From Oscillospiraceae bacterium (GTDB taxonomy: Bacteria; Bacillota; Clostridia; Oscillospirales; CAG-272): a stretch of DNA of 60,069 bases. Made by a program: the position numbers and the translations under genes. The notes below the pieces were generated by a model that made no database searches, was not told the origin of the DNA, and saw only the letters and a list, made by a program, of their open reading frames with translations. Of this stretch, positions 1-31,695 are shown piece by piece. Positions within the stretch are counted from its first letter, which is position 1. Each line of letters starts with the position of its first letter. The stretch covers positions 1 through 60,069 of the forward strand of contig SVRA01000003.1 of the NCBI GenBank assembly GCA_015065075.1, read 5' to 3'.

Positions 1-19
1 ATGCCCGGAATGTTCTGAT

Positions 20-619
20 ATGGCAGAATATATCGAGTCGCTCCAGAAGCTTGCGGAGCAGTTCGGCAGACTTGACGGCGTGGGCAGAAAGAACGCTATG
101 AAAATGGCGTTTTCGGTGCTTGATATGACCGACGAGGAGGCAAGCGAATTCGCCGCGGCTATTCTTGACGCGAAAGCGAAGATACACCTTTGCCCGATCT
201 GTCAGAATATAACCGACAAGGAGGTCTGCCCGATCTGTGCCGACCTGCAAAGAGACAGAAAAACGGTCTGCGTGGTCTCCGACCCCAAGGTCGTCATATC
301 TATGGAAAAGGTAAGGGAATATAAGGGACTTTATCACGTTCTCCACGGAGTTATCTCGCCCACCAACGGCGTCACTCCCGAAAAGCTCAAGATCCGCGAG
401 CTGCTCGCGAGACTTAACGAGGGAGAGATCGAGGAGGTCATAGTTGCGACTAACCCGACGGTCGAGGGAGAGGTCACGGCAATGTACCTTGCCCGTCTAC
501 TCAAGCCGATAGGAATAAAGGTCACACGGCTCGCATACGGCGTGCCTATGGGAAGTGACCTTGAATACGCGGACGAAATAACCCTGTTCCGCGCCCTCGA
601 GGGAAGACGCGATTTTTAA
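20..619 (+). CDS. recR: Recombination mediator RecR
   Basis: HhH (GVGRKNA), C4 zinc finger CPICQN...CPIC, Toprim motifs YHVLHGVISP, ATNPTVEGE, GSDLEYAD. Confidence 0.98.
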   Translation: MAEYIESLQKLAEQFGRLDGVGRKNAMKMAFSVLDMTDEEASEFAAAILDAKAKIHLCPICQNITDKEVCPICADLQRDRKTVCVVSDPKVVISMEKVREYKGLYHVLHGVISPTNGVTPEKLKIRELLARLNEGEIEEVIVATNPTVEGEVTAMYLARLLKPIGIKVTRLAYGVPMGSDLEYADEITLFRALEGRRDF

Positions 620-628
620 AAGCTTAAA

Positions 629-653
629 CGGGCGAACCTTGTTCGCCCATAAG
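629..653 (-). repeat. Degenerate GTAG-family REP-like palindrome
   Basis: CGGGCGAAC-CTT-GTTCGCCC-ATAAG; palindrome resembles GTAG-GGGCG...CGCCC REPs in reverse orientation with a decayed GTAG foot. Confidence 0.45.
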
Positions 654-671
654 TTGTTTTTACCGAATTAT

Positions 672-814
672 CGCCGCAAGCGGCGGATGGAGATCAGCGT
701 GAAGGCGAGGTCACTTTTATAGGTAATTAAACTGCTTCACGCGCGAATTTTGCCGACGAGGCAAAATTCAACGATTACTGTTTGTGCCGCCGCAAGCGGC
801 GGATGGAGATCAGA
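672..814 (+). repeat. Dispersed structured intergenic cassette, family 1, copy 1 (bounded by 26-bp direct repeats)
   Basis: CGCCGCAAGCGGCGGATGGAGATCAG at 672-697 and 788-813; internal GCGTGAA/TTCACGC stem and GAATTTTGCC/GGCAAAATTC hairpin; homologous to 6719-6842 and 31029-31152. Confidence 0.9.
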
Positions 815-1663
815 ATGAAATACATAAACCAAAATTATGACGAAGAACGTGCCCTGTACGGCATCGAAGATGCAGAGATCATAAATTGCACCTTCGCAGG
901 CGAGGCCGACGGCGAAAGTGCGCTAAAGGAGTGCAGACGCATCAAGGTTGAGAGCTGTCTGTTTGAATTGCGTTACCCCTTTTGGCACGTAAACGGCGCA
1001 GAAATATCCAACATCACCATGACCGAGACCTGCCGAGCTGCACTTTGGTACGACGATCACGTAAATATCGAAAAAAGCACGCTCCACGGCATAAAAGCTC
1101 TCCGCGAGTGCAAAAACGTCACGCTTTCCGAGTGCGACGTCGATAGCGCGGAGTTCGGCTGGAGATGCTCGGATATTACCGTCAAAAACACCACCGTTAA
1201 CTCCCAATATCCATTTTTTGAGTGCAAGAATATGCAGCTTTCCGAGTTTACCCTCTCGGGCAAGTATTCCTTCCAATACGTCGAAAACGTCGAGATCAGA
1301 AATTCCCATCTCAAGACCAAGGACGCCTTCTGGCACGCCAAGGACGTTATTGTTTACGACAGCGTCATCGAGGGAGAATATCTCGGCTGGTATTCCGAGA
1401 ATCTGCACCTCGTCCGTTGTCATATCAAGGGCACCCAGCCCCTCTGCTATTGCAAAAATCTTATCCTTGACGACTGCTTGACCGAGGATTGCGACCTCTC
1501 GTTTGAAAACAGCGAGGTCAAAGCGACAGTAAATGGCGATATCGTCAGCGTAAAGAATCCCGTCAGCGGCTTTGTCAGAGCAGATAGCATCGGCGAGATC
1601 ATCTGGGACGAAAAGCATAAAAAAGCATCCACTTGTAAAATAGAGTGCACAGTGAAAATATAA
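815..1663 (+). CDS. DUF3737 family protein (beta-helix-like repeats)
   Basis: ERALYG, DGESALKE, RYPFWH, TKDAFWH, GEYLGW, GTQPLCY motifs; start moved to ATG 815 behind GGAG. Confidence 0.85.
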   Translation: MKYINQNYDEERALYGIEDAEIINCTFAGEADGESALKECRRIKVESCLFELRYPFWHVNGAEISNITMTETCRAALWYDDHVNIEKSTLHGIKALRECKNVTLSECDVDSAEFGWRCSDITVKNTTVNSQYPFFECKNMQLSEFTLSGKYSFQYVENVEIRNSHLKTKDAFWHAKDVIVYDSVIEGEYLGWYSENLHLVRCHIKGTQPLCYCKNLILDDCLTEDCDLSFENSEVKATVNGDIVSVKNPVSGFVRADSIGEIIWDEKHKKASTCKIECTVKI

Positions 1664-1666
1664 CGC

Positions 1667-1710
1667 AAAAAAGCATCTCCCGTCCGACATTGGACGGGAG
1701 ATGCTTTTTT
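1667..1710. terminator. Bidirectional intrinsic terminator
   Basis: AAAAAAGCATCTCCCGTCC-loop-GGACGGGAGATGCTTTTTT between convergent genes. Confidence 0.9.
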
Positions 1711-1717
1711 ATGATCG

Positions 1718-3259
1718 TTATTTATTTTTCTTTACGACCCTTTTTACGAAGTTTTCAAGAGACTTGTTCGCGCTCTGGGCATTGCTATCGTAATAAGATG
1801 TAAGCTCGTAGCCGCTTGTCGCTGAGGTGACGTACGGCAGCATATAAAGCATATCGTTGGAAGCGTTTTCAAAGGTCTGACCGAAGTCTGTGCAAACGCT
1901 GTCCCAAACTATCTCAAGCATGTGTCTGTCATCGGGATTGTCGGCAACCTGCTTGCCGAGCAGCTTCTGGTAGAATGCGACCTTTACGCCGTCGCTGTAA
2001 TACGCGAGCATTTCAATGGTCTCTCCGACCATTTCTTCATCCTCAAAGTAAGCGGGAATAGCGAGATAACCACCCCACTGCAGCGAATGGTATTCTGTCT
2101 GATTGCTATCGAACAAAGGATAGGGAACTATACCGAAATCAATATCGTAATGAAGATATTCGGTAAGCTGATTGGTAGAGGATAGAGTCATGAGTGCTCG
2201 ATTAGTTGTGAAGGGAACAGTTATCTCAAAGGACCAATAATCCACGCAAGCGTAATCAGATGCAGCAAGATCCTTGAGCTTACCGACAAGCGCGATGGTC
2301 TTATCCTTGGTTTGTGCGTTGTAGAATGAAACCTCGTAGTTTCCTTGATCGTTCATCTCGACGAGATTGATGCCGCATCCCTCAAGGAAGCCGCACCACG
2401 GAACCCACTGAAGCCCCGTAAAGCCGTACTGATTTTTCTCAACGCTACCGTTGTCTATGTATGCAACCTTGGCGAGATCGATCATCTTATCGATCGTCCA
2501 CTCGTGGTCGTCGACCATCTGATAAATGCTCTTGTCAAGTACGTCGTCGTACTTTTCGAGCAGAGTTTTGTTAAAAGCGATAACGTATGTATAGAGAATA
2601 TTGAAGTCGTTAAAGCCTAGGAAATACATGTCGTCGATTGCAAGCGACTCCATAAAATCCTGATTCCAGTAATCAGCGTCAAGATCTATCTCGGGGATAT
2701 CGTTAAATTTGGTCAGATAACCGTCGGAGACAAGTCCTGCGACGTTAATGCTGACGTGAGTCATCATAAGATCTATTGCGCCTGATTTGGTCTTAACCGC
2801 TGTCTTGAAGGCGCTGGAGTAATCCTCCTCGGTGTTGTGCCAAGCGTACAGCTCGACTCCAAGATGATTTAGGATATCTTCCTGGCGGGCAAATAAAGCT
2901 GCGGATAATACGTCGTTGCCACTTTCTTCTACCCAATAATTATCGATAGGGTTGCAAGAGCCCTCAAGATACAAATAAAATATATCGTCGTAATTTTTCT
3001 TCTCAATATCGGGGACGTCAGGAGTTACCTCCGTGGTCTGCTCCGAAGTCTGTCCCGTGGTCTGCTCCGAAGCCTGTCCCGTGGTCTGCTCAGCGGTCTG
3101 TTCAGCGGTCTGACCCTCAGTCGGTTCAGTGGTTTCGTAGCCGTTGCCAGCAGAAGTCGTAGTATTTTCAGACGTGCCTGAAGCATCACACGCGGCAAAT
3201 ACAGAAAAAACAGAAAGAGCAGCCAATATAAGTGCCAACACTTTAAGCTTAAGTTTCAT
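1718..3259 (-). CDS. Extracellular solute-binding lipoprotein (carbohydrate ABC SBP-like)
   Basis: Lipobox VFAAC, T/E/Q-rich linker, SBP motifs IDLDADYWNQ, FNKTL, WTIDKM, DFGIVPYP. Confidence 0.8.
   Translation of the reverse strand: MKLKLKVLALILAALSVFSVFAACDASGTSENTTTSAGNGYETTEPTEGQTAEQTAEQTTGQASEQTTGQTSEQTTEVTPDVPDIEKKNYDDIFYLYLEGSCNPIDNYWVEESGNDVLSAALFARQEDILNHLGVELYAWHNTEEDYSSAFKTAVKTKSGAIDLMMTHVSINVAGLVSDGYLTKFNDIPEIDLDADYWNQDFMESLAIDDMYFLGFNDFNILYTYVIAFNKTLLEKYDDVLDKSIYQMVDDHEWTIDKMIDLAKVAYIDNGSVEKNQYGFTGLQWVPWCGFLEGCGINLVEMNDQGNYEVSFYNAQTKDKTIALVGKLKDLAASDYACVDYWSFEITVPFTTNRALMTLSSTNQLTEYLHYDIDFGIVPYPLFDSNQTEYHSLQWGGYLAIPAYFEDEEMVGETIEMLAYYSDGVKVAFYQKLLGKQVADNPDDRHMLEIVWDSVCTDFGQTFENASNDMLYMLPYVTSATSGYELTSYYDSNAQSANKSLENFVKRVVKKNK
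3031..3112. repeat. Coding tandem repeat (24-bp and 12-bp units) encoding EQTT/GQTS linker
   Basis: CCGTGGTCTGCTCCGAAG(T/C)CTGTC x2.5 then TCAGCGGTCTG x2. Confidence 0.85.
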
Positions 3260-3352
3260 AAATATATCCCTCCGCTTACATTTTTGCTTTTAAATATCTA
3301 CAAAAACATTATAATCCTAAAATAACAAGATGTCAAGAGCAAATCTATATGA

Positions 3353-5515
3353 TTATTTAAAATCAAACACGACCTTGTCCCCGTCAAGCTTGAGCCTTGC
3401 ATTGAATAGCTTACCGTTTTTGGAGGTAAAACCTTGTATTTCCGAGGTTTTTCCCTCGGCAAGCAGCTTGCGCGCGTTGCTGATCGAGATCGGGCGCTTG
3501 CAAATAAAGCTGCCAAATCGGAATTTGCATCCTTCCTTGTATCCCATACAGCCGTAACCGTATCTTCCGCGGACAACGTCCCTTTGACACACGGGGCATC
3601 TACCTACGAGATCTCCGTAGAATCCCGTGTCGGTGTCAAGCTCGATCGGGGCTTCGCGGCGGTCAAAGACCGCGGAGATCTCGTCGCACGCCTGCTTGAC
3701 GCTCTCGTCGACGGTCATCGTACCGCGATAGACCTTTTTGAGTGCCTGACCAAGCACGCTGGTCTTGTATTTGTCCATCGAAATGTTCATCTGCGAGAGC
3801 TGCTCGATGAGATATTCGCCGCCGGGCAGGATCGTGTAAACGTCCTTTTTGAGCTCAATGTATCCCGACTTGCGCGCGTTGTCGATAATACCCGTGCGCG
3901 TCGCCTCGGTGCCAAGCTCAAGACCCTCGAATATCGCTCTGTAATCCTCCTCGTCGTTTTCGACCTCGGAGGAAAGCTCCTCGCCCGATTCCGCGGCGGC
4001 TTTTTCCTTTTCGGCAAGCGCCGCCTTGTCTTCACGGAAGGGATTTTTCAGATAGTTGTTGAGCGTTTCTATGGTGTAGTGACGGGGAGGGGAGGTCTGC
4101 TTTTCGACGGGATGGAAGTTGATATTCACCTCGTCACCCTTTTCAAGCGGCGGCAGGATCTTATCCTTTCTCTCGCTGTCGTCGAATCGCAAAAATCCGC
4201 GTTGGATTATCATCATTCCCTTGAGAGTAAATTGCTCGTATCCGCCAACGTCAATGACGATCTCGGTCTTTTGAGCAAGACATTCTTCTTCGCAGAATAC
4301 CGAAACGAATCGGCGGAAAACCGTCTGATATACCTGCATCTCCTTTTCGGAAAGATGCTCTTTTTTGGGTATCTTGTAGGTCGGAGTCAGCGCCGAGTGG
4401 CTTTCGATCTTCGAGTCGTCGAAGATCGTCTTTTTGTCCTTGAAAACGACGGGATAGCCCAAGTGCTTGATGTTTGAAATGATCTTTTTGATCTTGTCCT
4501 TTTCATTTGTAGCAAGATATTCCGAGTTTGTGCGGGGATAGGTGAGATATCCCTCCTCGTAAAGCTTCTGAACTATCGCAAGGCTCTCCGCCATCGACAT
4601 TTTGTACTTTTTGCCAAGAAGATTTTGAAGCTTTGATAGTGAAAAGAGCTTTCCTGGGTTGACTGTCTCCTTTTTCGTCTTTTTGGATATTACGATAGCC
4701 TTGCTCGCGTTGTATTTGGCACAGAGCGCTTCAGCCTGGGCACGCTTGTCCTTGTCGAATTTCTCTTTGCTGACGAGCTCGATCTCCTCGCCCTTCGTAA
4801 TCTCCTTGGAAACTGCGGCGAGATAGATATCGGGAACGAAGTTGCGTATCGCCATATCTCTGTCGTATATCGCGCGAACTATCGGCACGATAACTCTGCC
4901 AACGCGCAAAAGCGTGCCGCATTTAAGCGTTGCAAATCGGGTAAGATTAACACCGTAAAGCCAATCTATATACGTCCTCGCAAAGCCCTCGTCGGCGAGA
5001 TTCTGATACTCATCCTCGCCCTTCATCTCGATAAGCGCTTTTCCGACCGTCTCGGGAGTCTGATCGGGCAGCCAGAGCCGCATAAATTTCTTGCTCGGAT
5101 CGGCAAGAGCGCCGGTATTCATCACACAAAGACGAATGATTATCTCACCCTCGCGGTCCGAGTCTCCCGCGTTTACTATACAGGTAACGTCGGGTCTCAG
5201 ACAAAGATATTTTATCGTTTCAAACTGTCGCTCAACCCCGGCATCGACCTTTTTGTCTGCCCCTGCGCGAAGCTTGTATTTGAATTCCGAGGGGAAGCAG
5301 GGAAGATTGTCAAGCGTCCATCTCGCGCTTGCATCTCCGCCCGTGTAATCCTCAATATCGCACAAAGAAAAAAGGTGACCGAACGCCCACGTAACTACGT
5401 AGTCGCCACCCTCAAAATATCCGTTTTTCTTTGATAAAGCCGCGCCGCCGTTTTCGACGATACCCGCAACGATATTTCGCGCAAGGCTCGGCTTTTCAGC
5501 AATTATTAACGTCAT
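3353..5515 (-). CDS. topB: Type IA DNA topoisomerase III
   Basis: IIAEKPS, TWAFGHL, NAGDSDREGE, GRVIVP, catalytic TYPRT, GTEATR, C-terminal topoisomerase repeat (GFTSKNGKLFNARL). Confidence 0.9.
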   Translation of the reverse strand: MTLIIAEKPSLARNIVAGIVENGGAALSKKNGYFEGGDYVVTWAFGHLFSLCDIEDYTGGDASARWTLDNLPCFPSEFKYKLRAGADKKVDAGVERQFETIKYLCLRPDVTCIVNAGDSDREGEIIIRLCVMNTGALADPSKKFMRLWLPDQTPETVGKALIEMKGEDEYQNLADEGFARTYIDWLYGVNLTRFATLKCGTLLRVGRVIVPIVRAIYDRDMAIRNFVPDIYLAAVSKEITKGEEIELVSKEKFDKDKRAQAEALCAKYNASKAIVISKKTKKETVNPGKLFSLSKLQNLLGKKYKMSMAESLAIVQKLYEEGYLTYPRTNSEYLATNEKDKIKKIISNIKHLGYPVVFKDKKTIFDDSKIESHSALTPTYKIPKKEHLSEKEMQVYQTVFRRFVSVFCEEECLAQKTEIVIDVGGYEQFTLKGMMIIQRGFLRFDDSERKDKILPPLEKGDEVNINFHPVEKQTSPPRHYTIETLNNYLKNPFREDKAALAEKEKAAAESGEELSSEVENDEEDYRAIFEGLELGTEATRTGIIDNARKSGYIELKKDVYTILPGGEYLIEQLSQMNISMDKYKTSVLGQALKKVYRGTMTVDESVKQACDEISAVFDRREAPIELDTDTGFYGDLVGRCPVCQRDVVRGRYGYGCMGYKEGCKFRFGSFICKRPISISNARKLLAEGKTSEIQGFTSKNGKLFNARLKLDGDKVVFDFK

Positions 5516-5551
5516 GATCTATCCGTCCGAAGATATTTTTCTGATACTATC

Positions 5552-5580
5552 ATTTTATCATAATGCCGAGTATTTGTCAA
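5552..5580 (-). promoter_or_regulatory. Sigma-A promoter of topB
   Basis: TTGACA-17-TAAAAT with extended TG on minus strand. Confidence 0.7.
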
Positions 5581-5697
5581 CAAAAAAAGCCCCTTGTTTG
5601 TTCATTGTCAATAAAATATGTGTAAATTAACTGATTGTCGGAAATAATCTTTGTTGAATTTGTCCTGTCGGGAGATGGAAATTTTGGCAGGAAAGCA

Positions 5698-5726
5698 TTG
5701 ACAAGTTAAACAAATTATAGTATAAT
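5698..5726 (+). promoter_or_regulatory. Sigma-A promoter of degV-DAK2 operon
   Basis: Perfect TTGACA-17-TATAAT. Confidence 0.85.
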
Positions 5727-5817
5727 TAATTTGTATGTGCTGACATTATAGTATAAATAATGTATGAGATATGCGAGGCAAACGACGTAATGCGTCGCAA
5801 AAAGAAATGGAGATTTT

Positions 5818-6681
5818 ATGAGAGATTACGTAATTTTTACAGACTCGTCCTGCGATCTTCCCACTTCCTTGGTAAAGGAATGGGGAATAGAAATACTCTC
5901 GCTTGAGGTAAACATCGAGGGTATTGGAACCTTCCTTAACCACGAGATCGAGCCCGCAAAATTTTACGGATACCTTCGAGACAAGCGCCCCGTAAAGACT
6001 GCTGCGGCAAATATGGAGGGCTTCGTAAATGCATTTGAGAAAATAGTATCCGAGGGCAAGGATATCCTTTATATAGGATTTTCCACGGGACTTTCCGCGA
6101 CCTACGTTGCAGGAAAGAACGCAGCCGAGGAGGTAATGGAAAAGCACCCCGAATGTAAGATCCTCACGGTCGACTCGCTCTGCGCGGCACTCGGTCAGGG
6201 TCTGCTTGTAAAATATGCGGTAGATAAGAAAAACACGGGAGCAACTCTCGAGGAGCTTGCGGCGTACGTCGAGGGACTTAAGCTCAACCTTGCACATTGG
6301 TTCACGGTCGAGGATCTTTTCTTCCTCAAGCGCGGCGGACGCGTATCCGCTGCGACCGCAGTTATGGGAACTGTCCTTCAGATCAAGCCCGTAATGCACG
6401 TTGATAACGACGGAAAGCTTATCAATATGGCAAAGGCGAGGGGCAGAGACGCATCTATCAAGGCTCTCGTTGAAAGAATGAAGCAGACCGTGATTGATCC
6501 CGAAAGGCAGACCGTATATATCTGCCACGGCGACTGCTATGACGATGCAAAGAAGCTTGCCGATATGGTCACCGCTGAATTCGGCATCACCGATATACTT
6601 ATCGACTACGTAGGTCCCGTTATCGGAGCTCATTCGGGTCCCGGCACTCTTGCGCTGTTCTTCATCGGAAGAGAAAGATAA
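5818..6681 (+). CDS. DegV family fatty acid-binding protein (FakB-like)
   Basis: TDSSCDLP, FSTGLSATY, LKRGGRVS, IKPVM, GPVIGAHSGPG. Confidence 0.95.
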   Translation: MRDYVIFTDSSCDLPTSLVKEWGIEILSLEVNIEGIGTFLNHEIEPAKFYGYLRDKRPVKTAAANMEGFVNAFEKIVSEGKDILYIGFSTGLSATYVAGKNAAEEVMEKHPECKILTVDSLCAALGQGLLVKYAVDKKNTGATLEELAAYVEGLKLNLAHWFTVEDLFFLKRGGRVSAATAVMGTVLQIKPVMHVDNDGKLINMAKARGRDASIKALVERMKQTVIDPERQTVYICHGDCYDDAKKLADMVTAEFGITDILIDYVGPVIGAHSGPGTLALFFIGRER

Positions 6682-6718
6682 TACGGTATACTACCGAAGT
6701 CAAAAAATATTTGAGATA

Positions 6719-6842
6719 CCGCACAAGCGGCGTAGTGGAGTTCAGCGTGAAAGGCACTTTGCACTTATAGGCAATTCAACTGCTTCACACACGAATTTTG
6801 CCGATGGCAAAATTCACCGATTATTATTTGTGGAGATATAAA
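6719..6842 (+). repeat. Family 1 cassette, copy 2
   Basis: CCGCACAAGCGG..TGGAG..GCGTGAA..TAGGCAATT..TTCACAC..GAATTTTGCC-GAT-GGCAAAATTC..TTTGTGGAGAT-ATG. Confidence 0.9.
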
Positions 6843-8504
6843 ATGGGTATAACAGGACAATTATATCGCAGTATGGTGCTTTCGGGCGCGGCAATGCTGA
6901 GCGATAGAAAAGAAGAGATAAACAATCTGAACGTGTTTCCAGTTCCCGACGGAGATACGGGTATAAATATGAGCCTTACGATGAGCACGGTAGGACAGGC
7001 GTCCGCAGAGCTCCCCGTAGGCGAGTGTGCCGATAAGGTTGCAGGACTTATGCTTCGTTCGGCAAGAGGAAACAGCGGCGCGATCCTCTCTCTGTTCTTC
7101 AGAGGAATAGGAAAAGCACTCAAGGGCGTATCCGAAGCAGAGCCCAAGGAGCTCGTTGAGGCGTTCAAGAGAGGTACTACCGAAGCATACCGCGCAGTAA
7201 TGAAGCCCACCGAGGGCACGATCCTCACGGTTATGAGAGTAGCGGGCGAGGGAGCTGAAAAGGCATACACTGCGAATAAGAGCATCAGTGTAAACGAGCT
7301 TTTCAAGGTTCTCATCGACAGCGCCGAGGTCGCTCTGGCGCAGACCCCCGATATGCTTCCCGTGCTTAAGCAGACGGGAGTCGTCGACGCAGGCGGTGCA
7401 GGCTTTGTCTGCGTGCTTAAGGGAATGAGAATGGCACTTGAGGGAGATCCTTACGTAGCCAAGAATGCTCCCGTGGACGAGAGCAGCGCACCCGCAGAGG
7501 TCGCAGGCGCGGATTTTGCGGACTTCAATACCGAGGACATCACCTTCGGCTATTGTACCGAATGTATAGTTGACAAAAACGAAAAGTATCTCGGCGAGGA
7601 CACCTCGGGCGAGCTTTACGAGTTTATAAAGAGCATCGGAGACAGCGCCGTGTTCGTAGATGACGAGAGCATCATCAAGCTCCACATACATACGAACGAT
7701 CCGGGCGCAGTTCTCACAAAGGCTATCGAATTTGGAAGTCTTGCAACGGTAAAGATCGAGAATATGAGAAATCAGCATACCGCGCTTACGAGCGAGGCGG
7801 CTGCATCCGAGAGCAACAAGACCGACAAGAAAAAGGTAGCTATTGAGAAGAAGTACGGATTTGTCAGCGTATGTATGGGCGAAGGCGTAAGCGAGATGTT
7901 CCGCGACGTCGGAGTTGATAATATCATCACGGGCGGACAGACTATGAACCCCAGCACGCAGGATATTATCGACGCAGTAATGAAGACCCCCTCCGAGTAC
8001 GTCTTCGTTATGCCTAACAATAAGAATATCTGTATGGTAGCGAGACAGGCATCGGAGATCATCACCGAGCGCAAGGTCGTTGTAATTCCCACGGAGACCG
8101 TGCCTCAGGGTATGGCGGCTATGATCGCGTACAACCCCGATGCAGAGGCAGAGGTCGTCGAAAGGGAAATGAACGACGCGGCAAAGATGGTAACGTCAAT
8201 GTCGGTAACCTTTGCCGTCAGAGATACCGAGATCGACCGCTTCAAGATCAAAAAAGGACAGTTCCTCGGTCTTGTTGAAAACAAGATTGCCTGCGTGAGC
8301 AACGAGAGCTTCGATTGCGTAAAGCAGCTCACCAGAGGAATGACGGGCGCCGTGTACGTCACCGTATTTTACGGCGAGGACGTAAGCGAGGAGACCGCAA
8401 ACAAGGTCGCTGAAATGATCTCGAATAAGGTCGGAGAGAACTGCGAGGTCGCAGTTCTTTACGGCGGCCAGCCCCTCTACGATTATATAATTTCCGTTGA
8501 ATAA
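6843..8504 (+). CDS. fakA: DAK2 domain protein / fatty acid kinase subunit FakA (YloV-like)
   Basis: INNLNVFPVPDGDTGINM, ARGNSG, PTEGTILTV, VDAGG, YCTE, HIHTNDPG, GGQTMNPS, GGQPLY; start moved to 6843. Confidence 0.92.
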   Translation: MGITGQLYRSMVLSGAAMLSDRKEEINNLNVFPVPDGDTGINMSLTMSTVGQASAELPVGECADKVAGLMLRSARGNSGAILSLFFRGIGKALKGVSEAEPKELVEAFKRGTTEAYRAVMKPTEGTILTVMRVAGEGAEKAYTANKSISVNELFKVLIDSAEVALAQTPDMLPVLKQTGVVDAGGAGFVCVLKGMRMALEGDPYVAKNAPVDESSAPAEVAGADFADFNTEDITFGYCTECIVDKNEKYLGEDTSGELYEFIKSIGDSAVFVDDESIIKLHIHTNDPGAVLTKAIEFGSLATVKIENMRNQHTALTSEAAASESNKTDKKKVAIEKKYGFVSVCMGEGVSEMFRDVGVDNIITGGQTMNPSTQDIIDAVMKTPSEYVFVMPNNKNICMVARQASEIITERKVVVIPTETVPQGMAAMIAYNPDAEAEVVEREMNDAAKMVTSMSVTFAVRDTEIDRFKIKKGQFLGLVENKIACVSNESFDCVKQLTRGMTGAVYVTVFYGEDVSEETANKVAEMISNKVGENCEVAVLYGGQPLYDYIISVE

Positions 8505-8506
8505 AC

Positions 8507-8537
8507 AAAAAACCGAGTGCATCGCACTCGGTTTTTT
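8507..8537. terminator. Bidirectional intrinsic terminator
   Basis: AAAAAACCGAGTGC-ATC-GCACTCGGTTTTTT. Confidence 0.9.
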
Positions 8538-8541
8538 ATTA

Positions 8542-9375
8542 TTAAATCAACCCCAACTTGACAAAAGCATTGTAAATGCCGTCGTCGGTAACGTCGGTCG
8601 TAACGATATCAGCCACCGCCTTCACGTCGTCAGAGCCGTTTCCCATACAAACGCCGACTCCCGCCGCCTTGATCATCTCAAGATCGTTTCCGCTGTCGCC
8701 CACGGCGATCGAATTTTTCATCGGCGCGCCTACCGCCGTCATAAATTTTTCGATGCCTACCGCCTTGTTGACTCCGTCAAAGGTTATCTCGCCGTGATAT
8801 AAGCTCTGCCCCGAGCCAAGACTGTAGCTGACGACGTAATAATAATCGCCAAGCTCGGCTCTGACCTCCTCGATAGAGAGGGGGGAATAGTAATAAGCGG
8901 CTTTTTCAACACATTCGAGCGCCTTGGGATCTTCAACGATCTCGGTGTTTCCGAAAACGCTGTCGAGCGTGACCTTGCCCGCACCCTCGGACTCAAAATG
9001 CGCGTATATCCGGTCGTAGCACCACCTCAAAGCGATCAAGCGATCGGTACTCTGCAAAAAATACGGGATCTTATACTTGTCGAAAAAATCTATCATTTCC
9101 GACAGCTTTTCGCGCGACGGACGGCTCTCGAATATCACCTTACCGCCGTATTCGATGTACGCGCCCGACGAAGCGACCATACCGTCAAAATCTATCTTTT
9201 CAAACAAGAATTTGTGTATCTGTGACTTCTGTCTGCCCGTGGCAAGCATTACTTTATGCCCGTTAGCCTGCGCTTTTTTCAGCGCGCAAACGGCGGACTC
9301 GGGTATCTCGCCCATAAAATTGACGAGCGTTCCGTCAACGTCAAGAAAAATATATTTCGTTTCCATTTTCATCAT
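8542..9375 (-). CDS. Cof-type HAD-IIB hydrolase
   Basis: FLDVDGTL, LATGR, NKAVGI, VGDSGNDLEM, MGNG. Confidence 0.95.
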   Translation of the reverse strand: MMKMETKYIFLDVDGTLVNFMGEIPESAVCALKKAQANGHKVMLATGRQKSQIHKFLFEKIDFDGMVASSGAYIEYGGKVIFESRPSREKLSEMIDFFDKYKIPYFLQSTDRLIALRWCYDRIYAHFESEGAGKVTLDSVFGNTEIVEDPKALECVEKAAYYYSPLSIEEVRAELGDYYYVVSYSLGSGQSLYHGEITFDGVNKAVGIEKFMTAVGAPMKNSIAVGDSGNDLEMIKAAGVGVCMGNGSDDVKAVADIVTTDVTDDGIYNAFVKLGLI

Positions 9376-14833: not shown

Positions 14834-15200
14834 CTACTTTTCTTGAAAGAAAAGTAGCAAAAGAACTTCCCCTATATTTTGGGTCCTTTTACAGTGCCGT
14901 AGAATTTTTTCAGCGGCAAGCCTCGAAAAAATTCCTCTCTATCGTTTCTTACTTATAAGGTGTTGAACCCAAGCCATCTCGCCCGTCTTAAAACCAATAA
15001 TCAACCCGCCCGGTCGGCGAAGCCGACTTTTAAGATTAAAAGCAACTCAATCATCAAAACGGAGAGGGGAATTCTTAAGGGCGGAGAGGATGTTGAAGCA
15101 AGAGAAAATGCGGCTCGCTGCTTTTTTTCTTGCGAAACCCTCTCCCCCTTAAGCGGCGTTTCTTTTGTAACTTTTCTTGTCGCTGATGACAAGAAAAGTT
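14834..15200. mobile_element. REPIN/MITE-like non-coding insert with inverted palindromic ends
   Basis: Left end ACTTTTCTTG-AAAGAAAAGTAGCAAAAGAA mirrors the reverse complement of right end TTCTTTTGTAACTTTTCTTG...AAGAAAAGT; several internal hairpins. Confidence 0.5.
15069..15200 (+). repeat. Structured repeat family 2, copy A
   Basis: 80-nt stem-loop CTTAAG...CTTAAG with apical GCGGCTCGCTGC, linker CGGCGTTTCTTTT, terminal hairpin; homologous to 25808-25936. Confidence 0.88.
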
Positions 15201-15219: not shown

Positions 15220-15490
15220 AAAAAAGCCCCGATGTAAAAACATCAGGACGTCAATACGCGGTACCACCTAATTTGCATCTGCCGTAGGGGCGGATTCCAT
15301 ATCCGCCCGAAAAAATCGGACAAACACCACTCAAAAGCTCTAACGTCGCCACCGTCGCAGACTACTCAGCAAAAAAGCCTTCACCCGCACCACTCGCAAG
15401 CTACCTTCAACCGCCGCCTCTGTGGATTTTCACCTGCCATCCACTCTCTGAAAGAGACCTGCGACCTACTCCTCTTGGTCATCGCGTTTA
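15220..15490 (-). promoter_or_regulatory. T-box riboswitch (Val) upstream of valS
   Basis: T-box AATTAGGTGGTACCGCG (15257-15273, minus), AGAGA and GGTGAAA stem I motifs, specifier GAAG-GTA-GC (GUA = Val, 15402-15404), terminator CCTGATGT/ACATCGGGG + T6. Confidence 0.95.
15284..15309 (+). repeat. GTAG-family REP palindrome
   Basis: GTAG-GGGCGGAT-TCCAT-ATCCGCCC-G. Confidence 0.7.
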
Positions 15491-15503
15491 AATATGATAA
15501 CAC

Positions 15504-18915: not shown

Positions 18916-18991
18916 GCTGGTATGGCTCAGTCGGTAGAGCACGTCATTGGTAATGACGAGGTCATCAGTTCGATTCTGATTACCAGCTCCA
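18916..18991 (+). tRNA. tRNA-Thr(GGT)
   Basis: 76 nt; acceptor GCTGGTA/TACCAGC, D arm GCTC/GAGC, anticodon arm CGTCA-TTGGTAA-TGACG, T arm ATCAG-TTCGATT-CTGAT, encoded CCA. Confidence 0.98.
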
Positions 18992-19020
18992 AAATCCATC
19001 GCAAAAGCGGTGGATTTTTT
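18992..19020 (+). terminator. tRNA terminator (duplicated at 19152-19180)
   Basis: AAATCCATCGC-AAAA-GCGGTGGATTTTTT. Confidence 0.85.
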
Positions 19021-19036
19021 GTTTCTACTTCGCCAC

Positions 19037-19151
19037 GGCTCAGTCGGTAGAGCACGTCATTGGTAAGGACGACCTACGTTCGCTGCGCTCACTGTGCGAA
19101 ATTGCTTCGCAATTATCGGGATCATCAGTTCGATTCTGATTACCAGCTCCA
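19037..19151 (+). pseudogene. Pseudo-tRNA-Thr copy with 47-nt insertion
   Basis: Matches 18924-18991 except 2 substitutions and an insert at 19073-19119; 5' acceptor strand missing. Confidence 0.88.
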
Positions 19152-19239
19152 AAATCCATCGCAAAAGCGGTGGATTTTTTGTTTTCCTTGACATTTTCTT
19201 CAAACTATGCTACCATAGTTACAGAAAGGCGGTGAACTT

Positions 19240-25659: not shown

Positions 25660-25807
25660 AATTCTTAAACTCCATCTTGCGAAGCACAAGCGTGTGCGAG
25701 CAACACAGCATTACTTTCACCCAAGATGGACAAAAGAGCCCCATCAGGAAGTTCAACCACGCGGCTTCAGATTCGGAAACACAGTGTGCCGAAGGCGAAA
25801 GGGTGGA

Positions 25808-25936
25808 GAATTCTTAAAGAGAAGGGAGATGTTGAGCAAGTTCAAAACGCGGCTCGCTGCTTTTTGAACGGCGAAACCTCCCTTCTTTTTAAGCGGCGTT
25901 TCTTTTCGTAGTTTTCTTGCCGCTGTTGGCAAGAAA
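25808..25936 (+). repeat. Structured repeat family 2, copy B
   Basis: Same architecture as 15069-15200 with compensatory stem changes. Confidence 0.88.
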
Positions 25937-30449: not shown

Positions 30450-31049
30450 ATGCCTGAACTCAAGAAGAACGATCAGAGCGAGACCGCAAAGAATCTGAAA
30501 AAGGCAGATTCCGAAAAATCATTAGGCGGTACGCAGATTGATTACATAGTTGGGCTTCGCGGTGTAAAAGCGAAGGATCCGACAGAAAGCGAAAAAACCC
30601 GTAAAGCAAAGGCGCGTAAAAAGCTTCCGCTGGCAGTAGATATTATAATAACCCTGTTGATGCTGGCACTGATAGTGGGAGTAATAGTTGGAGCTTATTA
30701 TCTGTTCAGATATTTCTCCACGGATTATGAAAGCGTGAATATCGAGTATTCCTTTGCCATCTCGTGTGAAGAAAACGCCGCTGAATATCAAAAGGTGTTG
30801 AATAAAGAGCTCTATTTTGACATAGATGGCAGTACCGTGTATTTTGGAAAGATAAAGTCAATTTCTGTTTCCGAGGATAATACGCTTGCGGTATTGACCG
30901 TAGAGGTCACGGCAATCCATAAGGCAGATGCGGGATATTATCTTGGAGAAAACAGAGTAGCAGTTGGAAGCGACTATACTCTCAGGATCGAGGATCAAAA
31001 AATAGACGGAACCGTTGTCGAACTTACGGGAGGTTTGCGTGAAAGTTGA
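30450..31049 (+). CDS. Single-TM protein, DUF4330-like
   Basis: VDIIITLL TM, FGKIKSI, GYYLGENRVAVGS..LR. Confidence 0.6.
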   Translation: MPELKKNDQSETAKNLKKADSEKSLGGTQIDYIVGLRGVKAKDPTESEKTRKAKARKKLPLAVDIIITLLMLALIVGVIVGAYYLFRYFSTDYESVNIEYSFAISCEENAAEYQKVLNKELYFDIDGSTVYFGKIKSISVSEDNTLAVLTVEVTAIHKADAGYYLGENRVAVGSDYTLRIEDQKIDGTVVELTGGLRES

Positions 31050-31152
31050 TTCCTACCATTAGGTAATTATGCTTTTTCACGCGAGAAATTTGCCGTTGGC
31101 AAAATTCGCAAATCATATTTGTGCCGCTGCACGCGGCGGAATGGAGATTAAA
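31029..31152 (+). repeat. Family 1 cassette, copy 3
   Basis: GGAG..GCGTGAAA..TAGGTAATT..TTTCACGC..GAAATTTGCC-GTT-GGCAAAATTC..TTTGTGCCGC..GCGGCGGAATGGAGAT-ATG. Confidence 0.88.
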
Positions 31153-31695
31153 ATGGCAGAAAAGCGCAAAAGATCGGGTAGAAGAATAACCGCGTTCGAT
31201 ATAATGGTGATATTGCTCGTCCTTTGCCTTATCGGGACGGTAGTATACAGAGTGTATACCGAAATCGACAACGACAAAGCGGGCATCACGTCAAAATATT
31301 CAATTGAATTTGAGTGCGAGGATTACGATAGTCTTGCAAAATATCTTTTAGACGAAGAGGAGGTATACCTTGCCTCAAACGGCAGACTCCTTGGAGAGAT
31401 ATATAAGGGTTGGAACGACGCTCAGGCGATATACGTTGAGTATTCCGACACGGAAGGCACAGAGCAGACCGAGTCGGGAAATGACGAGCAATCAGCAAAA
31501 AATGAGACGGCGGTGTCGTACCGAATGGCAAAAATGACGGGAAAAATGCGTCTGAACTTAGAGGTTTTGGCATCAAAGGAAGGAAACTACTATTCGTTGG
31601 GAGAAGTCAACTTTTCCAAGGGGAGCGTGATAGACGTATATACCGACGATGCGGAGTTTACGATAACTATAACAAGCATAACCGCAACTAAATAA
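31153..31695 (+). CDS. Single-TM protein, DUF4330-like paralog
   Basis: FDIMVILL TM, GRLLGEI, YYSLGEVNFSKGS; start moved to 31153. Confidence 0.6.
   Translation: MAEKRKRSGRRITAFDIMVILLVLCLIGTVVYRVYTEIDNDKAGITSKYSIEFECEDYDSLAKYLLDEEEVYLASNGRLLGEIYKGWNDAQAIYVEYSDTEGTEQTESGNDEQSAKNETAVSYRMAKMTGKMRLNLEVLASKEGNYYSLGEVNFSKGSVIDVYTDDAEFTITITSITATK

What the first reader, a model, noticed from the sequence alone, without database searches (positions are those of the whole stretch)
689..722. Length-invariant 7-codon minigene in every full family 1 copy
Seen: each copy has GGAG, exactly 6 nt, then GTG-AAR, five variable codons and TAG: 699-722 MKARSLL, 6747-6770 MKGTLHL, 31039-31062 MKVDSYH. Codons 3-6 differ between copies, yet SD spacing, start, Lys2, length and stop are fixed, and the stem 3' arm starts exactly 13 nt after TAG. 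The GTG lies in the 5' arm of that stem. Inference: a ribosome on the minigene would melt the stem, so this could be a peptide-sequence-independent leader-ORF device coupling translation to the downstream gene.
Basis: partly seen in the sequence, partly recalled or inferred. Interest (0 to 1): 0.85.

Follow-up and report, generated by a model that had tools for sequence, protein, structure and literature searches.

The report
Mini-ORF at edge of RBS-invading repeat
The seven-codon "minigene" is the left edge of a small repeated DNA element that wedges itself between a gene's ribosome-binding site and its start codon, so the signals around it come mostly from how the element inserts and folds, and it has no fixed length.

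Summary
The three window copies are exactly as described: GGAG, 6 nt, GTG-AAR, seven codons, TAG, with the 3' stem arm 13 nt later. The claim does not generalise. Among 94 aligned copies from this genus the ORF has 5 to 10 codons in 86, 8 read through, and 5 lack GTG.

Family 1 is a roughly 115-nt element, found only in this genus among the genomes searched. Empty versus filled orthologous sites show that it sits 2-3 nt after a GGAG-type SD and about 4 nt before the ATG. It ends in its own hairpin plus a GGAATGGAGAT SD.

The GGAG before the GTG is therefore the host gene's stranded SD, or the 3' SD of a preceding unit. GTG-AAR is the 5' arm of a covarying stem. The "Lys" wobble base covaries with the 3' arm, and one GTG-to-GCG change is compensated.

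One feature does favour ribosome use. Stops are 3-4 times enriched in the GTG frame (86/94 copies against 37-38/94 in the other frames), and they change position between copies.

My best reading is an insertion-made decoy mini-ORF with selected early termination. A regulatory leader ORF is not excluded. There are no expression data.

The parts
672..694 (+). Hairpin plus GGAG (689-692) in front of copy 1. This is the 3' hairpin-SD module of a truncated preceding unit, and it serves as the 'SD' of the copy 1 mini-ORF.
   Evidence: The stretch is repeated at 788-819 (family D13). At this locus G016 and G043 carry the native SD instead, G007 is empty, and G045 and contig C125 carry two tandem units.
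695..810 (+). Family 1 element, copy 1. It runs from the YAGC left end to the GGAGAT right end.
   Evidence: Conservation starts at -4 relative to GTG and ends at GGAGAT. Empty and filled sites are compared.
699..722 (+). Mini-ORF of copy 1: GTG, then six more sense codons, then TAG.
   Evidence: Read directly from the sequence.
697..742 (+). Stem P1 of copy 1, with the 5' arm at 697-704 and the 3' arm at 735-742. It encloses the mini-ORF.
   Evidence: The MFE and centroid fold contain it. Helix 1 is paired in 93.0% of cells across 94 copies, with compensatory changes.
745..769 (+). Hairpin P2 of copy 1, a 10-bp stem.
   Evidence: (helix 2, 95.1% paired).
787..808 (+). Hairpin P3 (787-802) and the element's own SD, GGAG at 805-808, which serves the gene that starts at 815.
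   Evidence: helix 3, 92.4% paired. GGAG is followed by ATG after 6 nt in 66 copies and after 5-7 nt in 90 of the 118 copies scanned; 16 gave no motif or start.
815..1663 (+). Downstream gene of copy 1 (282 aa).
6719..6740 (+). Degenerate hairpin plus GGAG (6737-6740) in front of copy 2. It is a remnant of an earlier hairpin-SD module.
   Evidence: Thirty orthologous DegV-YloV intergenic regions were compared. G043 has the module alone, and G007 has the module followed by a full element.
6743..6837 (+). Family 1 element, copy 2. P3 is lost at the 3' side. The mini-ORF is 6747-6770, the SD is 6832-6835 and the gene ATG is at 6843.
31029..31032 (+). Native SD of the gene at 31153. It lies inside the 3' end of the upstream ORF (30450-31049) and now precedes the copy 3 mini-ORF.
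   Evidence: The empty orthologous sites in G016, G045 and G043 keep this SD directly before the ATG. The insertion rewrote the last codons of the upstream ORF.
31035..31148 (+). Family 1 element, copy 3. The mini-ORF is 31039-31062, P1 arms are 31037-31044 and 31075-31082, P2 is 31085-31107, P3 is 31124-31139, the SD is 31143-31146 and the gene ATG is at 31153.

Best explanation
Family 1 is a roughly 115-nt interspersed element. Among the genomes searched its core occurs only in this genus. Every copy lies in sense orientation inside the ribosome-binding site of a host gene.

The left end (YAGC-GTG-AAR-G...) follows a GGAG-type SD by 2-3 nt. The right end is a GC hairpin followed by GGAATGGAGAT, and it lies about 4 nt before the gene's ATG. 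The element thus supplies a replacement SD at the normal 6-nt spacing. These points are shown.

The GGAG in front of the GTG is the host gene's original SD, or in tandem or truncated arrays the 3' SD of the preceding unit. The GTG lies 4 nt inside the element, so it lands where the displaced ATG used to be. 'SD, 6 nt, GTG' follows from that geometry (shown from empty and filled sites).

GTG-AAR is the 5' arm of an 8-9 bp stem, P1, that covaries with its 3' arm (shown). This explains the conservation of the start codon and of Lys2.

I infer that the stranded SD still loads some ribosomes on this GTG. I also infer that selection keeps the frame closed inside the P1 loop, after 5-10 codons at varying stop positions, often with stacked stops. 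Such ribosomes would then be released before they run out of frame across P2, P3 and the real RBS.

On this reading the mini-ORF is a decoy, or ribosome-disposal, ORF made by the insertion. It is not a peptide gene, and it is not shown to be a regulatory leader.
For: (1) Family size and range.
- The own genome has 36 hits.
- Twenty of 24 other genomes of the genus have matches. None of 16 genomes from other families of the order does.
- In 119 other Clostridia genomes the P1-P2 core was never matched. Only the 3' module was matched.

(2) Empty versus filled orthologous sites at nine loci.
- At the C8, C32, C40, C62 and C122 loci and at window copies 1 and 3, the native SD stays to the left of the element.
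- The last approximately 4 nt of the spacer and the ATG stay to its right.
- At C40 the inserted block is exactly YAGC...GGAGAT, with no target duplication.

(3) Base profile of 118 copies. Conservation begins at -4. G occurs at -10 in 87 copies and at -9 in 101. Sequence further upstream is unrelated between copies.

(4) The 3' GGAG is followed by ATG after 6 nt in 66 copies and after 5-7 nt in 90 of the 118 copies scanned; 16 gave no motif or start.

(5) Structure.
- P1, P2 and P3 are paired in 93.7% of cells, against 27-53% when partners are slid.
- Nine pairs show changes on both sides, and 0 of 500 shuffles reach this.
- Pair 20-55, the third base of the 'Lys' codon, reads AU in 71, GC in 14, GU in 4 and CG in 1.
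- Pair 16-59 includes one compensated GTG-to-GCG change.

(6) Stops.
- Frame 0 is closed inside P1 in 86 of 94 copies. Frame 2 is closed in 38 of 94, and frame 1 in 37 of 94 when the obligatory GTGA is set aside.
- Stops per copy are 1.55 in frame 0, against 0.42 and 0.41 in the other frames.
- A null model with independent columns gives 63.0 +/- 3.5 of 78 copies with a stop. The observed number is 74 (P about 3e-4). Frames 1 and 2 do not exceed their nulls.
- Among 22 representatives that differ at more than 10 of 30 interior positions, 21 keep a frame-0 stop, against 9 and 9 in the other frames. Base composition predicts 45%.
Against: - There are no transcript or ribosome data, so translation of the GTG is inferred only.
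- The GTG is sequestered in a stable stem, which should depress initiation and weaken any selection on stops.
- Copies are related by descent and by gene conversion. The stop statistics therefore overstate independence. Conserved purines in the loop (A20, A22, G23, A26, A27) could reflect an RNA motif rather than stop codons.
- Eight of 94 copies read through (17 or more codons, or no stop), with no visible loss of SD or GTG.
- SD strength does not decay with divergence from the consensus; the fraction with a strong SD is 0.92 in all four quartiles.
- At the C9 locus GGAGG lies on both sides, so that junction is ambiguous.
- Junctions were compared between species, not within one species. Their exact position is uncertain by 1-3 nt at several loci.
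- The mobilising mechanism is unknown.
Confidence: 0.5

Rival explanations
1. The mini-ORF is a peptide-independent leader ORF. A ribosome translating it melts P1, and this changes the fold of the 5' region and so tunes or couples translation of the downstream gene.
For: - SD, start and stop recur in about 90% of copies.
- The SD does not decay in the more diverged copies.
- Stops are specific to the GTG frame and change position.
- The peptide is unconstrained.
- In some copies the MFE fold pairs the SD region, or the YUUCC inside the ORF, with other parts instead of forming P1 (L123 and window copy 2). Alternative folds therefore exist.
Against: - No conserved pairing connects P1 or the ORF to the downstream SD. 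The YUUCC:GGAG pairing is compatible in 85.9% of cells, but the shuffled mean is 86.3% and no pair changes on both sides.
- The downstream SD sits unpaired after P3.
- No terminator-like site lies in the elements.
- The stop lies about 85 nt before the gene's ATG, which is far for reinitiation.
- The downstream genes are unrelated.
- The start codon is lost in 5 of 94 copies, once with stem compensation.
- The sister family in other Clostridia lacks a start codon at the equivalent position in 31 of 53 hits. Where GTG is present (12 hits), the ORFs run for 13 or more codons.
Confidence: 0.2
2. The feature is purely structural. The element is an RNA or single-stranded DNA structure module (P1-P2-P3). 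The GTG is buried and never used, and the ORF and its stops are by-products of an AU-rich loop motif inherited from a common ancestor.
For: - Covariation explains GTG and AAR.
- The span from GTG to the 3' arm is constant whether or not the ORF frame is kept.
- There is no codon-position signature: entropies are 1.02, 1.18 and 1.10.
- ORF length varies and some copies read through.
- One-sided changes are often G-U, as expected for a sense-strand fold.
- Folding energies have z-scores of -1.9 to -3.3.
Against: - The three- to fourfold frame-specific stop excess persists in strongly diverged representatives (21 of 22).
- The negative association between alternative stop positions is not predicted by structure alone.
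- The stranded SD was by definition a working SD, and it lies 6 nt from a GTG.
Confidence: 0.2
3. The retained SD plus mini-ORF acts as a 5' stabiliser. A 30S subunit or ribosome held at the stranded SD and the P1-P3 hairpins would shield the downstream cistron from 5'-to-3' decay after operon processing, as described for SD-type stabilisers in Bacillus. That comparison is recalled and was not checked here.
For: - The SD is retained in 104 of 118 copies.
- Three stable hairpins without a terminator tail are present.
- Most copies lie between co-directional genes: 26 of 33 have an upstream ORF ending within 300 nt, and 13 within 60 nt.
- Relatives are labelled Clostridia or Oscillospiraceae.
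Against: No data on RNA ends or half-lives exist. Frame-specific stops are not needed for a stabiliser. This reading rests on analogy only.
Confidence: 0.1

Closest known systems
Neisseria REP2 repeats, with the similar Borrelia IR sequences (Parkhill 2000 and Morelle 2003, as described in the review PMC3184786, of which I read sections 9 and 11 and search passages)
   Same: Both are multi-copy 120-150 bp intergenic repeats without terminal inverted repeats. Both have internal stem-loops, sit immediately upstream of unrelated ORFs and carry the ribosome-binding site those genes use.
   Different: REP2 also carries a promoter and the ATG. Here a promoter-like match occurs in only 1 of 3 window copies, and the ATG with the last approximately 4 nt of spacer belongs to the host gene. 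Insertion into the SD-ATG spacer, a stranded SD and a mini-ORF are not described for REP2 in the text I read. Sequence similarity was not tested.
Mycobacterial interspersed repetitive units, MIRU (Supply 1997, as described in PMC3184786 section 9)
   Same: Both are small repeats between genes of an operon, co-transcribed with them. Both contain short ORFs and have ends that overlap the adjacent genes. Both show empty and filled sites.
   Different: MIRUs show tetranucleotide direct repeats and imperfect terminal inverted repeats. Here there is no target duplication and no terminal inverted repeat. Here the ORF is closed inside the element and does not bridge the two genes.
Leader-peptide and uORF translational control (erm- or cat-type leaders, recalled; upstream RBSs giving coupling or RBS occlusion, PMC13285730, abstract start only)
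   Same: In both, an SD and start codon lie upstream of a gene and open a very short ORF that overlaps an RNA stem.
   Different: Here there is no conserved peptide or length, no alternative fold tied to the downstream RBS or to a terminator, and no dedicated gene class. The upstream SD is a relic of insertion.
REP/BIME, BOX, RUP, Correia and other MITE-like repeats (PMC3184786; PMC3049150, search passages only)
   Same: All are short, structured, multi-copy intergenic repeats with presence/absence polymorphism and tandem arrays.
   Different: Those families insert at varied intergenic positions, and many have terminal inverted repeats and target duplications. This element is strictly oriented and is placed inside the RBS.
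IS200/IS605-derived palindrome-associated elements (recalled)
   Same: Both have subterminal hairpins, no terminal inverted repeats and no target duplication. Both insert just 3' of a short motif, have a fixed orientation and leave clean empty sites.
   Different: Only a sub-threshold Y1 transposase match exists in this 75%-complete genome. The distance from GGAG to the left end varies by 1-2 nt. No autonomous partner was found.

Membership tests
Leader-peptide / uORF attenuator | An SD and start codon open a short ORF upstream of the regulated gene | tested here: met
   GTG is present in 89 of 94 copies. An SD-like site is present in 104 of 118 copies.
Leader-peptide / uORF attenuator | A conserved ORF length, peptide or stalling motif | tested here: not met
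   The ORF has 5 to 10 codons and 8 of 94 copies read through. There are 68 distinct peptides in 78 copies.
Leader-peptide / uORF attenuator | Mutually exclusive folds that link ORF translation to the downstream RBS or to a terminator | tested here: inconclusive
   No terminator was found. The downstream SD is unpaired in the consensus. YUUCC:GGAG pairing is possible but shows no covariation.
RBS-carrying intergenic repeat (REP2-like) | A multi-copy repeat immediately upstream of unrelated ORFs that provides their RBS | tested here: met
   The own genome has 36 hits. GGAG is followed by ATG after 5-7 nt in 90 of the 118 copies scanned, and 16 gave no motif or start. Downstream genes are diverse.
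RBS-carrying intergenic repeat (REP2-like) | Carries a promoter and the ATG | tested here: not met
   A promoter-like site (9 of 12 matches) occurs in 1 of 3 window copies. The ATG and the last approximately 4 nt of spacer are present in the empty sites.
RBS-carrying intergenic repeat (REP2-like) | Sequence homology to REP2 | not tested
   No REP2 sequence was available from a tool.
MITE | Terminal inverted repeats and target-site duplication | tested here: not met
   The two ends (YAGCGTGAAAG and GGAATGGAGAT) are not complementary, as read. No duplication is seen at the C40 junction.
IS200/IS605-type non-autonomous element | Subterminal hairpins, no TIR or TSD, insertion 3' of a short motif | tested here: met
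   Hairpins P1 and P3 are supported. GG lies at -10 and -9 in 87 and 101 of 118 copies. Junctions are shown.
IS200/IS605-type non-autonomous element | A Y1 transposase (PF01797) in the genome, with matching ends | tested here: inconclusive
   There is one sub-threshold match of 20.1 bits against a cut-off of 23. The genome is 74.6% complete.
Any Rfam family | A covariance-model match | tested here: not met
   At gathering thresholds the window gives only a T-box and a tRNA. With E up to 10 on 620-840, nothing comes near its threshold.

The most novel reading that the evidence does not exclude
Family 1 and its relatives form a superfamily of mobile 'RBS cassettes' in Clostridia. Each element recognises an SD-start-codon spacer, inserts into it and re-supplies a standard hairpin-SD. 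That 3' module occurs before unrelated genes in 17 other genera. The insertion turns the displaced native SD into the driver of a self-terminating mini-ORF. Translation of this mini-ORF would open P1. Each insertion would then install a transposable, sequence-independent unit that insulates or couples translation in front of a gene.
Probability: 0.2. Interest if true: 0.85.

Novelty: new variant of a known kind. Interest (0 to 1): 0.55.

Why it matters
- It replaces an apparently designed leader gene with a testable origin. The SD, its spacing and the start codon follow from where and how a repeat inserts and folds.
- It describes a repeat that sits precisely inside ribosome-binding sites and brings a substitute SD. 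I did not find that placement described in three full-text searches or in the review sections I read.
- If ribosomes really use the stranded SD, these elements are natural experiments. They show how cells neutralise or exploit an orphan initiation site in front of dozens of genes.
- The hairpin-SD module shared across Clostridia may be a portable RBS.
- Practically, such mini-ORFs should not be annotated as genes. The elements also rewrite the ends of upstream genes, as at window 31039-31049.

Tried and rejected
- Known RNA families: none.
- Consensus folding by the alignment tool returned only part of P3, and my own RNAalifold run returned nothing. I therefore scored hand-drawn helices.
- An inner helix in the P1 loop (TTACT with AGTRA) was not tested. 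One search failed on a string-length slip and I did not resend it.
- Anti-SD pairing of YUUCC with either SD showed no covariation.
- A promoter carried by the element: weak, and seen in only 1 of 3 window copies.
- Y1 transposase as mobiliser: only a sub-threshold match. No other transposase family was searched.
- Phage or plasmid carriage:
  - No exact motif was found in viral contigs.
  - No match was found in the phage collection.
  - One plasmid match covers the 3' module only. It lies in a Roseburia plasmid beside an IS110-family gene, and I take this adjacency as no evidence of mobilisation.
- Cross-lineage support for the start codon was rejected on closer look. A sister family in four genomes of another Clostridia family also begins with GTGAAA in some copies. 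Across its 53 hits, 31 have no NTG-AAR at that position. The 12 hits with GTG open ORFs of 13 to 424 codons.
- RNA evidence: no RNA holder was listed for window 1-9000.
Supplementary files were not requested.

Rows dropped:
- From 124 nhmmer hits (36 own, 88 from relatives), 1 duplicate was removed, leaving 123.
- Five rows were then set aside, leaving 118. These were misaligned tandem C12 units, the C96 duplicate and two loci fetched twice.
- For the alignment I kept 105 copies with a recognisable 3' SD and a length of 125-160 nt.
- One hundred of these could be referenced in stored loci.
I left out five copies with a family 2 insertion in P3 and one short copy.
- The stop null model used the 78 of 94 copies without indels.

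Full report
Observation. Each has GGAG, six bases, GTG-AAR, five further codons and TAG, at 699-722, 6747-6770 and 31039-31062. The GTG lies in the 5' arm of a stem. In copy 1 the 3' arm (736-742) starts 13 nt after the TAG. Rfam finds no known family there.

The family. A profile built from the three copies finds 36 hits at E<1e-6 in the window's own genome, a 1.84-Mb assembly that is 74.6% complete. One pair (C45 end and C96 start) is the same locus. The two tandem units on contig C125 are a variant of the window copy 1 locus. Twenty of 24 other genomes of the same genus have matches, from 1 to more than 20 each. None of 16 genomes from other families of the order does. Relatives are metagenome-assembled genomes labelled Clostridia, Eubacteriales or Oscillospiraceae bacterium. 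I fetched 88 further copies from those relatives.

The consensus unit has these parts in order:
- an SD-like GGAG and 2-3 variable bases;
- YAGC-GTG-AAR-G;
- a loop of about 28 nt;
- the 3' arm TTTCACGC (together with the GTG arm, stem P1);
- a perfect 10-bp hairpin (P2);
- a 17-nt linker;
- a GC hairpin (P3);
- GGAATGGAGAT, about 4 bases, and the ATG of a gene.

Is the mini-ORF invariant? No.
- In the own genome it has 6 codons in 10 copies, 7 in 10, 8 in 6, 10 in 4 and 24 or more in 5. One duplicate was mis-anchored. Three copies do not start with GTG.
- In 94 aligned copies (A2), 89 have GTG. The others have GCG (2), ACG, GTT and GTA.
- In those 94 copies the first stop comes after 5 codons in 2, 6 in 30, 7 in 38, 8 in 11 and 10 in 5. 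Eight run for 17 or more codons or have no stop.
- The span from GTG to the 3' arm is constant in 78 of 94. It is the whole stem interior that is poor in indels, and single-base indels occur within the ORF part.
- There are 68 distinct peptides in 78 copies. The three codon positions vary equally, with entropies of 1.02, 1.18 and 1.10.

Why GTG and AAR are conserved. The three helices are paired in 93.7% of 2335 cells, against 27-53% when the partners are slid. Nine pairs show changes on both sides, and 0 of 500 shuffles reach this. The third base of the 'Lys' codon pairs with the 3' arm and covaries with it: AU in 71, GC in 14, GU in 4 and CG in 1. One copy has GTG changed to GCG together with CAC changed to CGC, which keeps the stem and loses the start. 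Single-copy folds contain P1, P2 and P3, with z-scores of -1.9 to -3.3.

Where the SD comes from. I compared nine loci with their orthologues in closely related species.
- At the C8, C32, C40, C62 and C122 loci, and at window copies 1 and 3, some species have a plain site with SD, a spacer of 6-9 nt and ATG. Other species have the element inside that spacer.
- In the filled sites the native SD stays on the left, 2-3 nt before YAGC. The last approximately 4 nt of the spacer and the ATG stay on the right of GGAGAT.
- At the C40 locus the inserted block is exactly YAGC...GGAGAT, with nothing duplicated or lost.
- At C9, GGAGG lies on both sides, so that junction is ambiguous.
- At a tenth locus, C57, all four close relatives are filled.
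- At window copy 3 the native SD lies in the last codons of the upstream gene. The insertion rewrote that gene's C-terminus, so the ORF 30450-31049 now stops inside the element.
- At window copies 1 and 2 the GGAG belongs to a hairpin-SD module left by a preceding, truncated unit. Related species show the native SD, the module alone, one unit or two tandem units at these loci.

In 118 copies, conservation starts at -4. G is found at -10 in 87 and at -9 in 101, while sequence further upstream is unrelated. The element's GTG lies 4 nt from its left end, and the element sits about 4 nt before the ATG. The GTG therefore takes the place of the displaced ATG. This gives 'SD, 6 nt, GTG' by construction. 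The element's own GGAG is followed by ATG after 6 nt in 66 copies and after 5-7 nt in 90 of the 118 copies scanned; 16 gave no motif or start.

What speaks for ribosome use.
- An SD-like site (duplex energy of -4 kcal/mol or lower with a recalled anti-SD motif) is present in 104 of 118 copies, against 19 of 117 control windows. It is no weaker in the more diverged copies.
- Frame 0 is closed inside the P1 interior in 86 of 94 copies. Frame 2 is closed in 38 of 94, and frame 1 in 37 of 94 once the obligatory GTGA is set aside.
- Stops per copy are 1.55 in frame 0, against 0.42 and 0.41 in the other frames. They fall at nucleotides 18, 21, 24 and 30, often stacked.
- A null model that draws each column independently predicts 63.0 +/- 3.5 of 78 copies with a frame-0 stop. 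The observed number is 74 (P about 3e-4). The other frames do not exceed their nulls.
- Among 22 representatives that differ from each other at more than 10 of 30 interior positions, 21 keep a frame-0 stop, against 9 and 9 in the other frames. Base composition predicts 45%.

The copies are related, so these figures overstate independence. Conserved loop purines could also belong to an RNA motif.

What speaks against a regulatory leader.
- The downstream SD is unpaired in the consensus.
- The only candidate link, YUUCC inside the ORF with either GGAG, shows no covariation.
- No terminator is present, and a promoter-like site occurs in only one window copy.
- The stop lies about 85 nt before the gene's ATG.
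- The downstream genes are unrelated. Most copies lie between co-directional genes: 26 of 33 have an upstream ORF ending within 300 nt.

Wider relatives.
- A search of 119 other Clostridia genomes with a full copy matched 19 genomes from 17 other genera. Every match covers only the last approximately 50 nt, that is the linker end, P3, the SD and the ATG.
- In eight loci read, this module precedes unrelated genes. It also occurs in a Roseburia plasmid.
- In four genomes of another family the module is joined to a different 5' core that forms tandem arrays.
- Some of those copies begin with GTGAAA after an SD. Across 53 hits, 31 have no start codon at that position. The 12 hits with GTG open ORFs of 13 to 424 codons. 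The mini-ORF is thus not a feature of the superfamily.

Comparison with known systems.
- The closest described kinds are the Neisseria REP2 repeats and the Borrelia IR sequences. These are repeats without terminal inverted repeats, with internal stem-loops, placed immediately upstream of genes and carrying their RBS.
- MIRUs are also close. They are intercistronic repeats with small ORFs that overlap the neighbouring genes. For both comparisons I read sections 9 and 11 and search passages of the review PMC3184786.
- The present element differs from these in three ways. It sits inside the SD-ATG spacer, it leaves a stranded SD, and it closes the resulting frame early.
- It fails the MITE criteria. 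It resembles IS200/IS605-derived elements in its architecture, but no transposase was found.
- Three full-text searches listed nothing that describes such a placement. Supplementary files were not consulted.

Verdict. The SD, the spacing, the start codon and Lys2 are explained by insertion geometry and by stem pairing. The frame-specific stops suggest that ribosomes do see this ORF. I read it as a decoy mini-ORF made by the insertion (confidence 0.5). No expression data could be obtained.

Noticed in passing
L148 (G043), inside the P3 loop of the C57-locus element; also the 3' ends of own-genome copies on contigs C7, C119, C15 and C48: A second short repeat ('family 2', about 47 nt, beginning CGGGG and containing GAATTAAGTGAGC) is nested in the P3 loop of several family 1 copies. 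It was also seen in relatives (L027, L044, L053, L072).
   Followed up: partly
window 5783-5820: A solo hairpin followed by GAAATGGAGATTTT and the ATG of the ORF at 5818-6681. It resembles the family 1 3' module without P1 and P2. A regular-expression scan listed 43 candidate sites of this kind in the own genome; only some of them show a hairpin.
   Followed up: partly
L269-L275, L267 and L276-L302 (other Clostridia genera; Roseburia plasmid NZ_CP135163.1 at 203470-203521): The linker-P3-GGAATGGAG module occurs before unrelated genes in 19 of 119 other Clostridia genomes. In one family it is joined to a different 5' core that forms tandem arrays of up to 5-6 units. In the Roseburia plasmid it lies about 300 nt from an IS110-family transposase gene.
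   Followed up: partly
own-genome contig C125, 266-554: This short contig repeats the flanks of window 646-830 but carries two tandem family 1 units instead of one. It is probably a strain variant binned into the same assembly. G045 has the same two-unit state.
   Followed up: partly
window 15241-15491 (- strand): A T-box leader (Rfam RF00230, 115.9 bits).
   Followed up: no
window 15066-15196 and 25805-25936: Two stretches of about 130 nt that are 70-85% alike (repeat families D4 and D8). One lies next to the T-box leader. Their nature is unknown.
   Followed up: no
window 18916-19184: A tRNA gene (18916-18988) followed by near-identical repeated pieces (D3, D11). This suggests tandem tRNA genes that share a 3' flank and hairpin.
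   Followed up: no
window 3007-3126: A 12-nt periodic repeat, seven registers of a 48-nt unit, inside the long ORF at 1718-3259 on the - strand.
   Followed up: no
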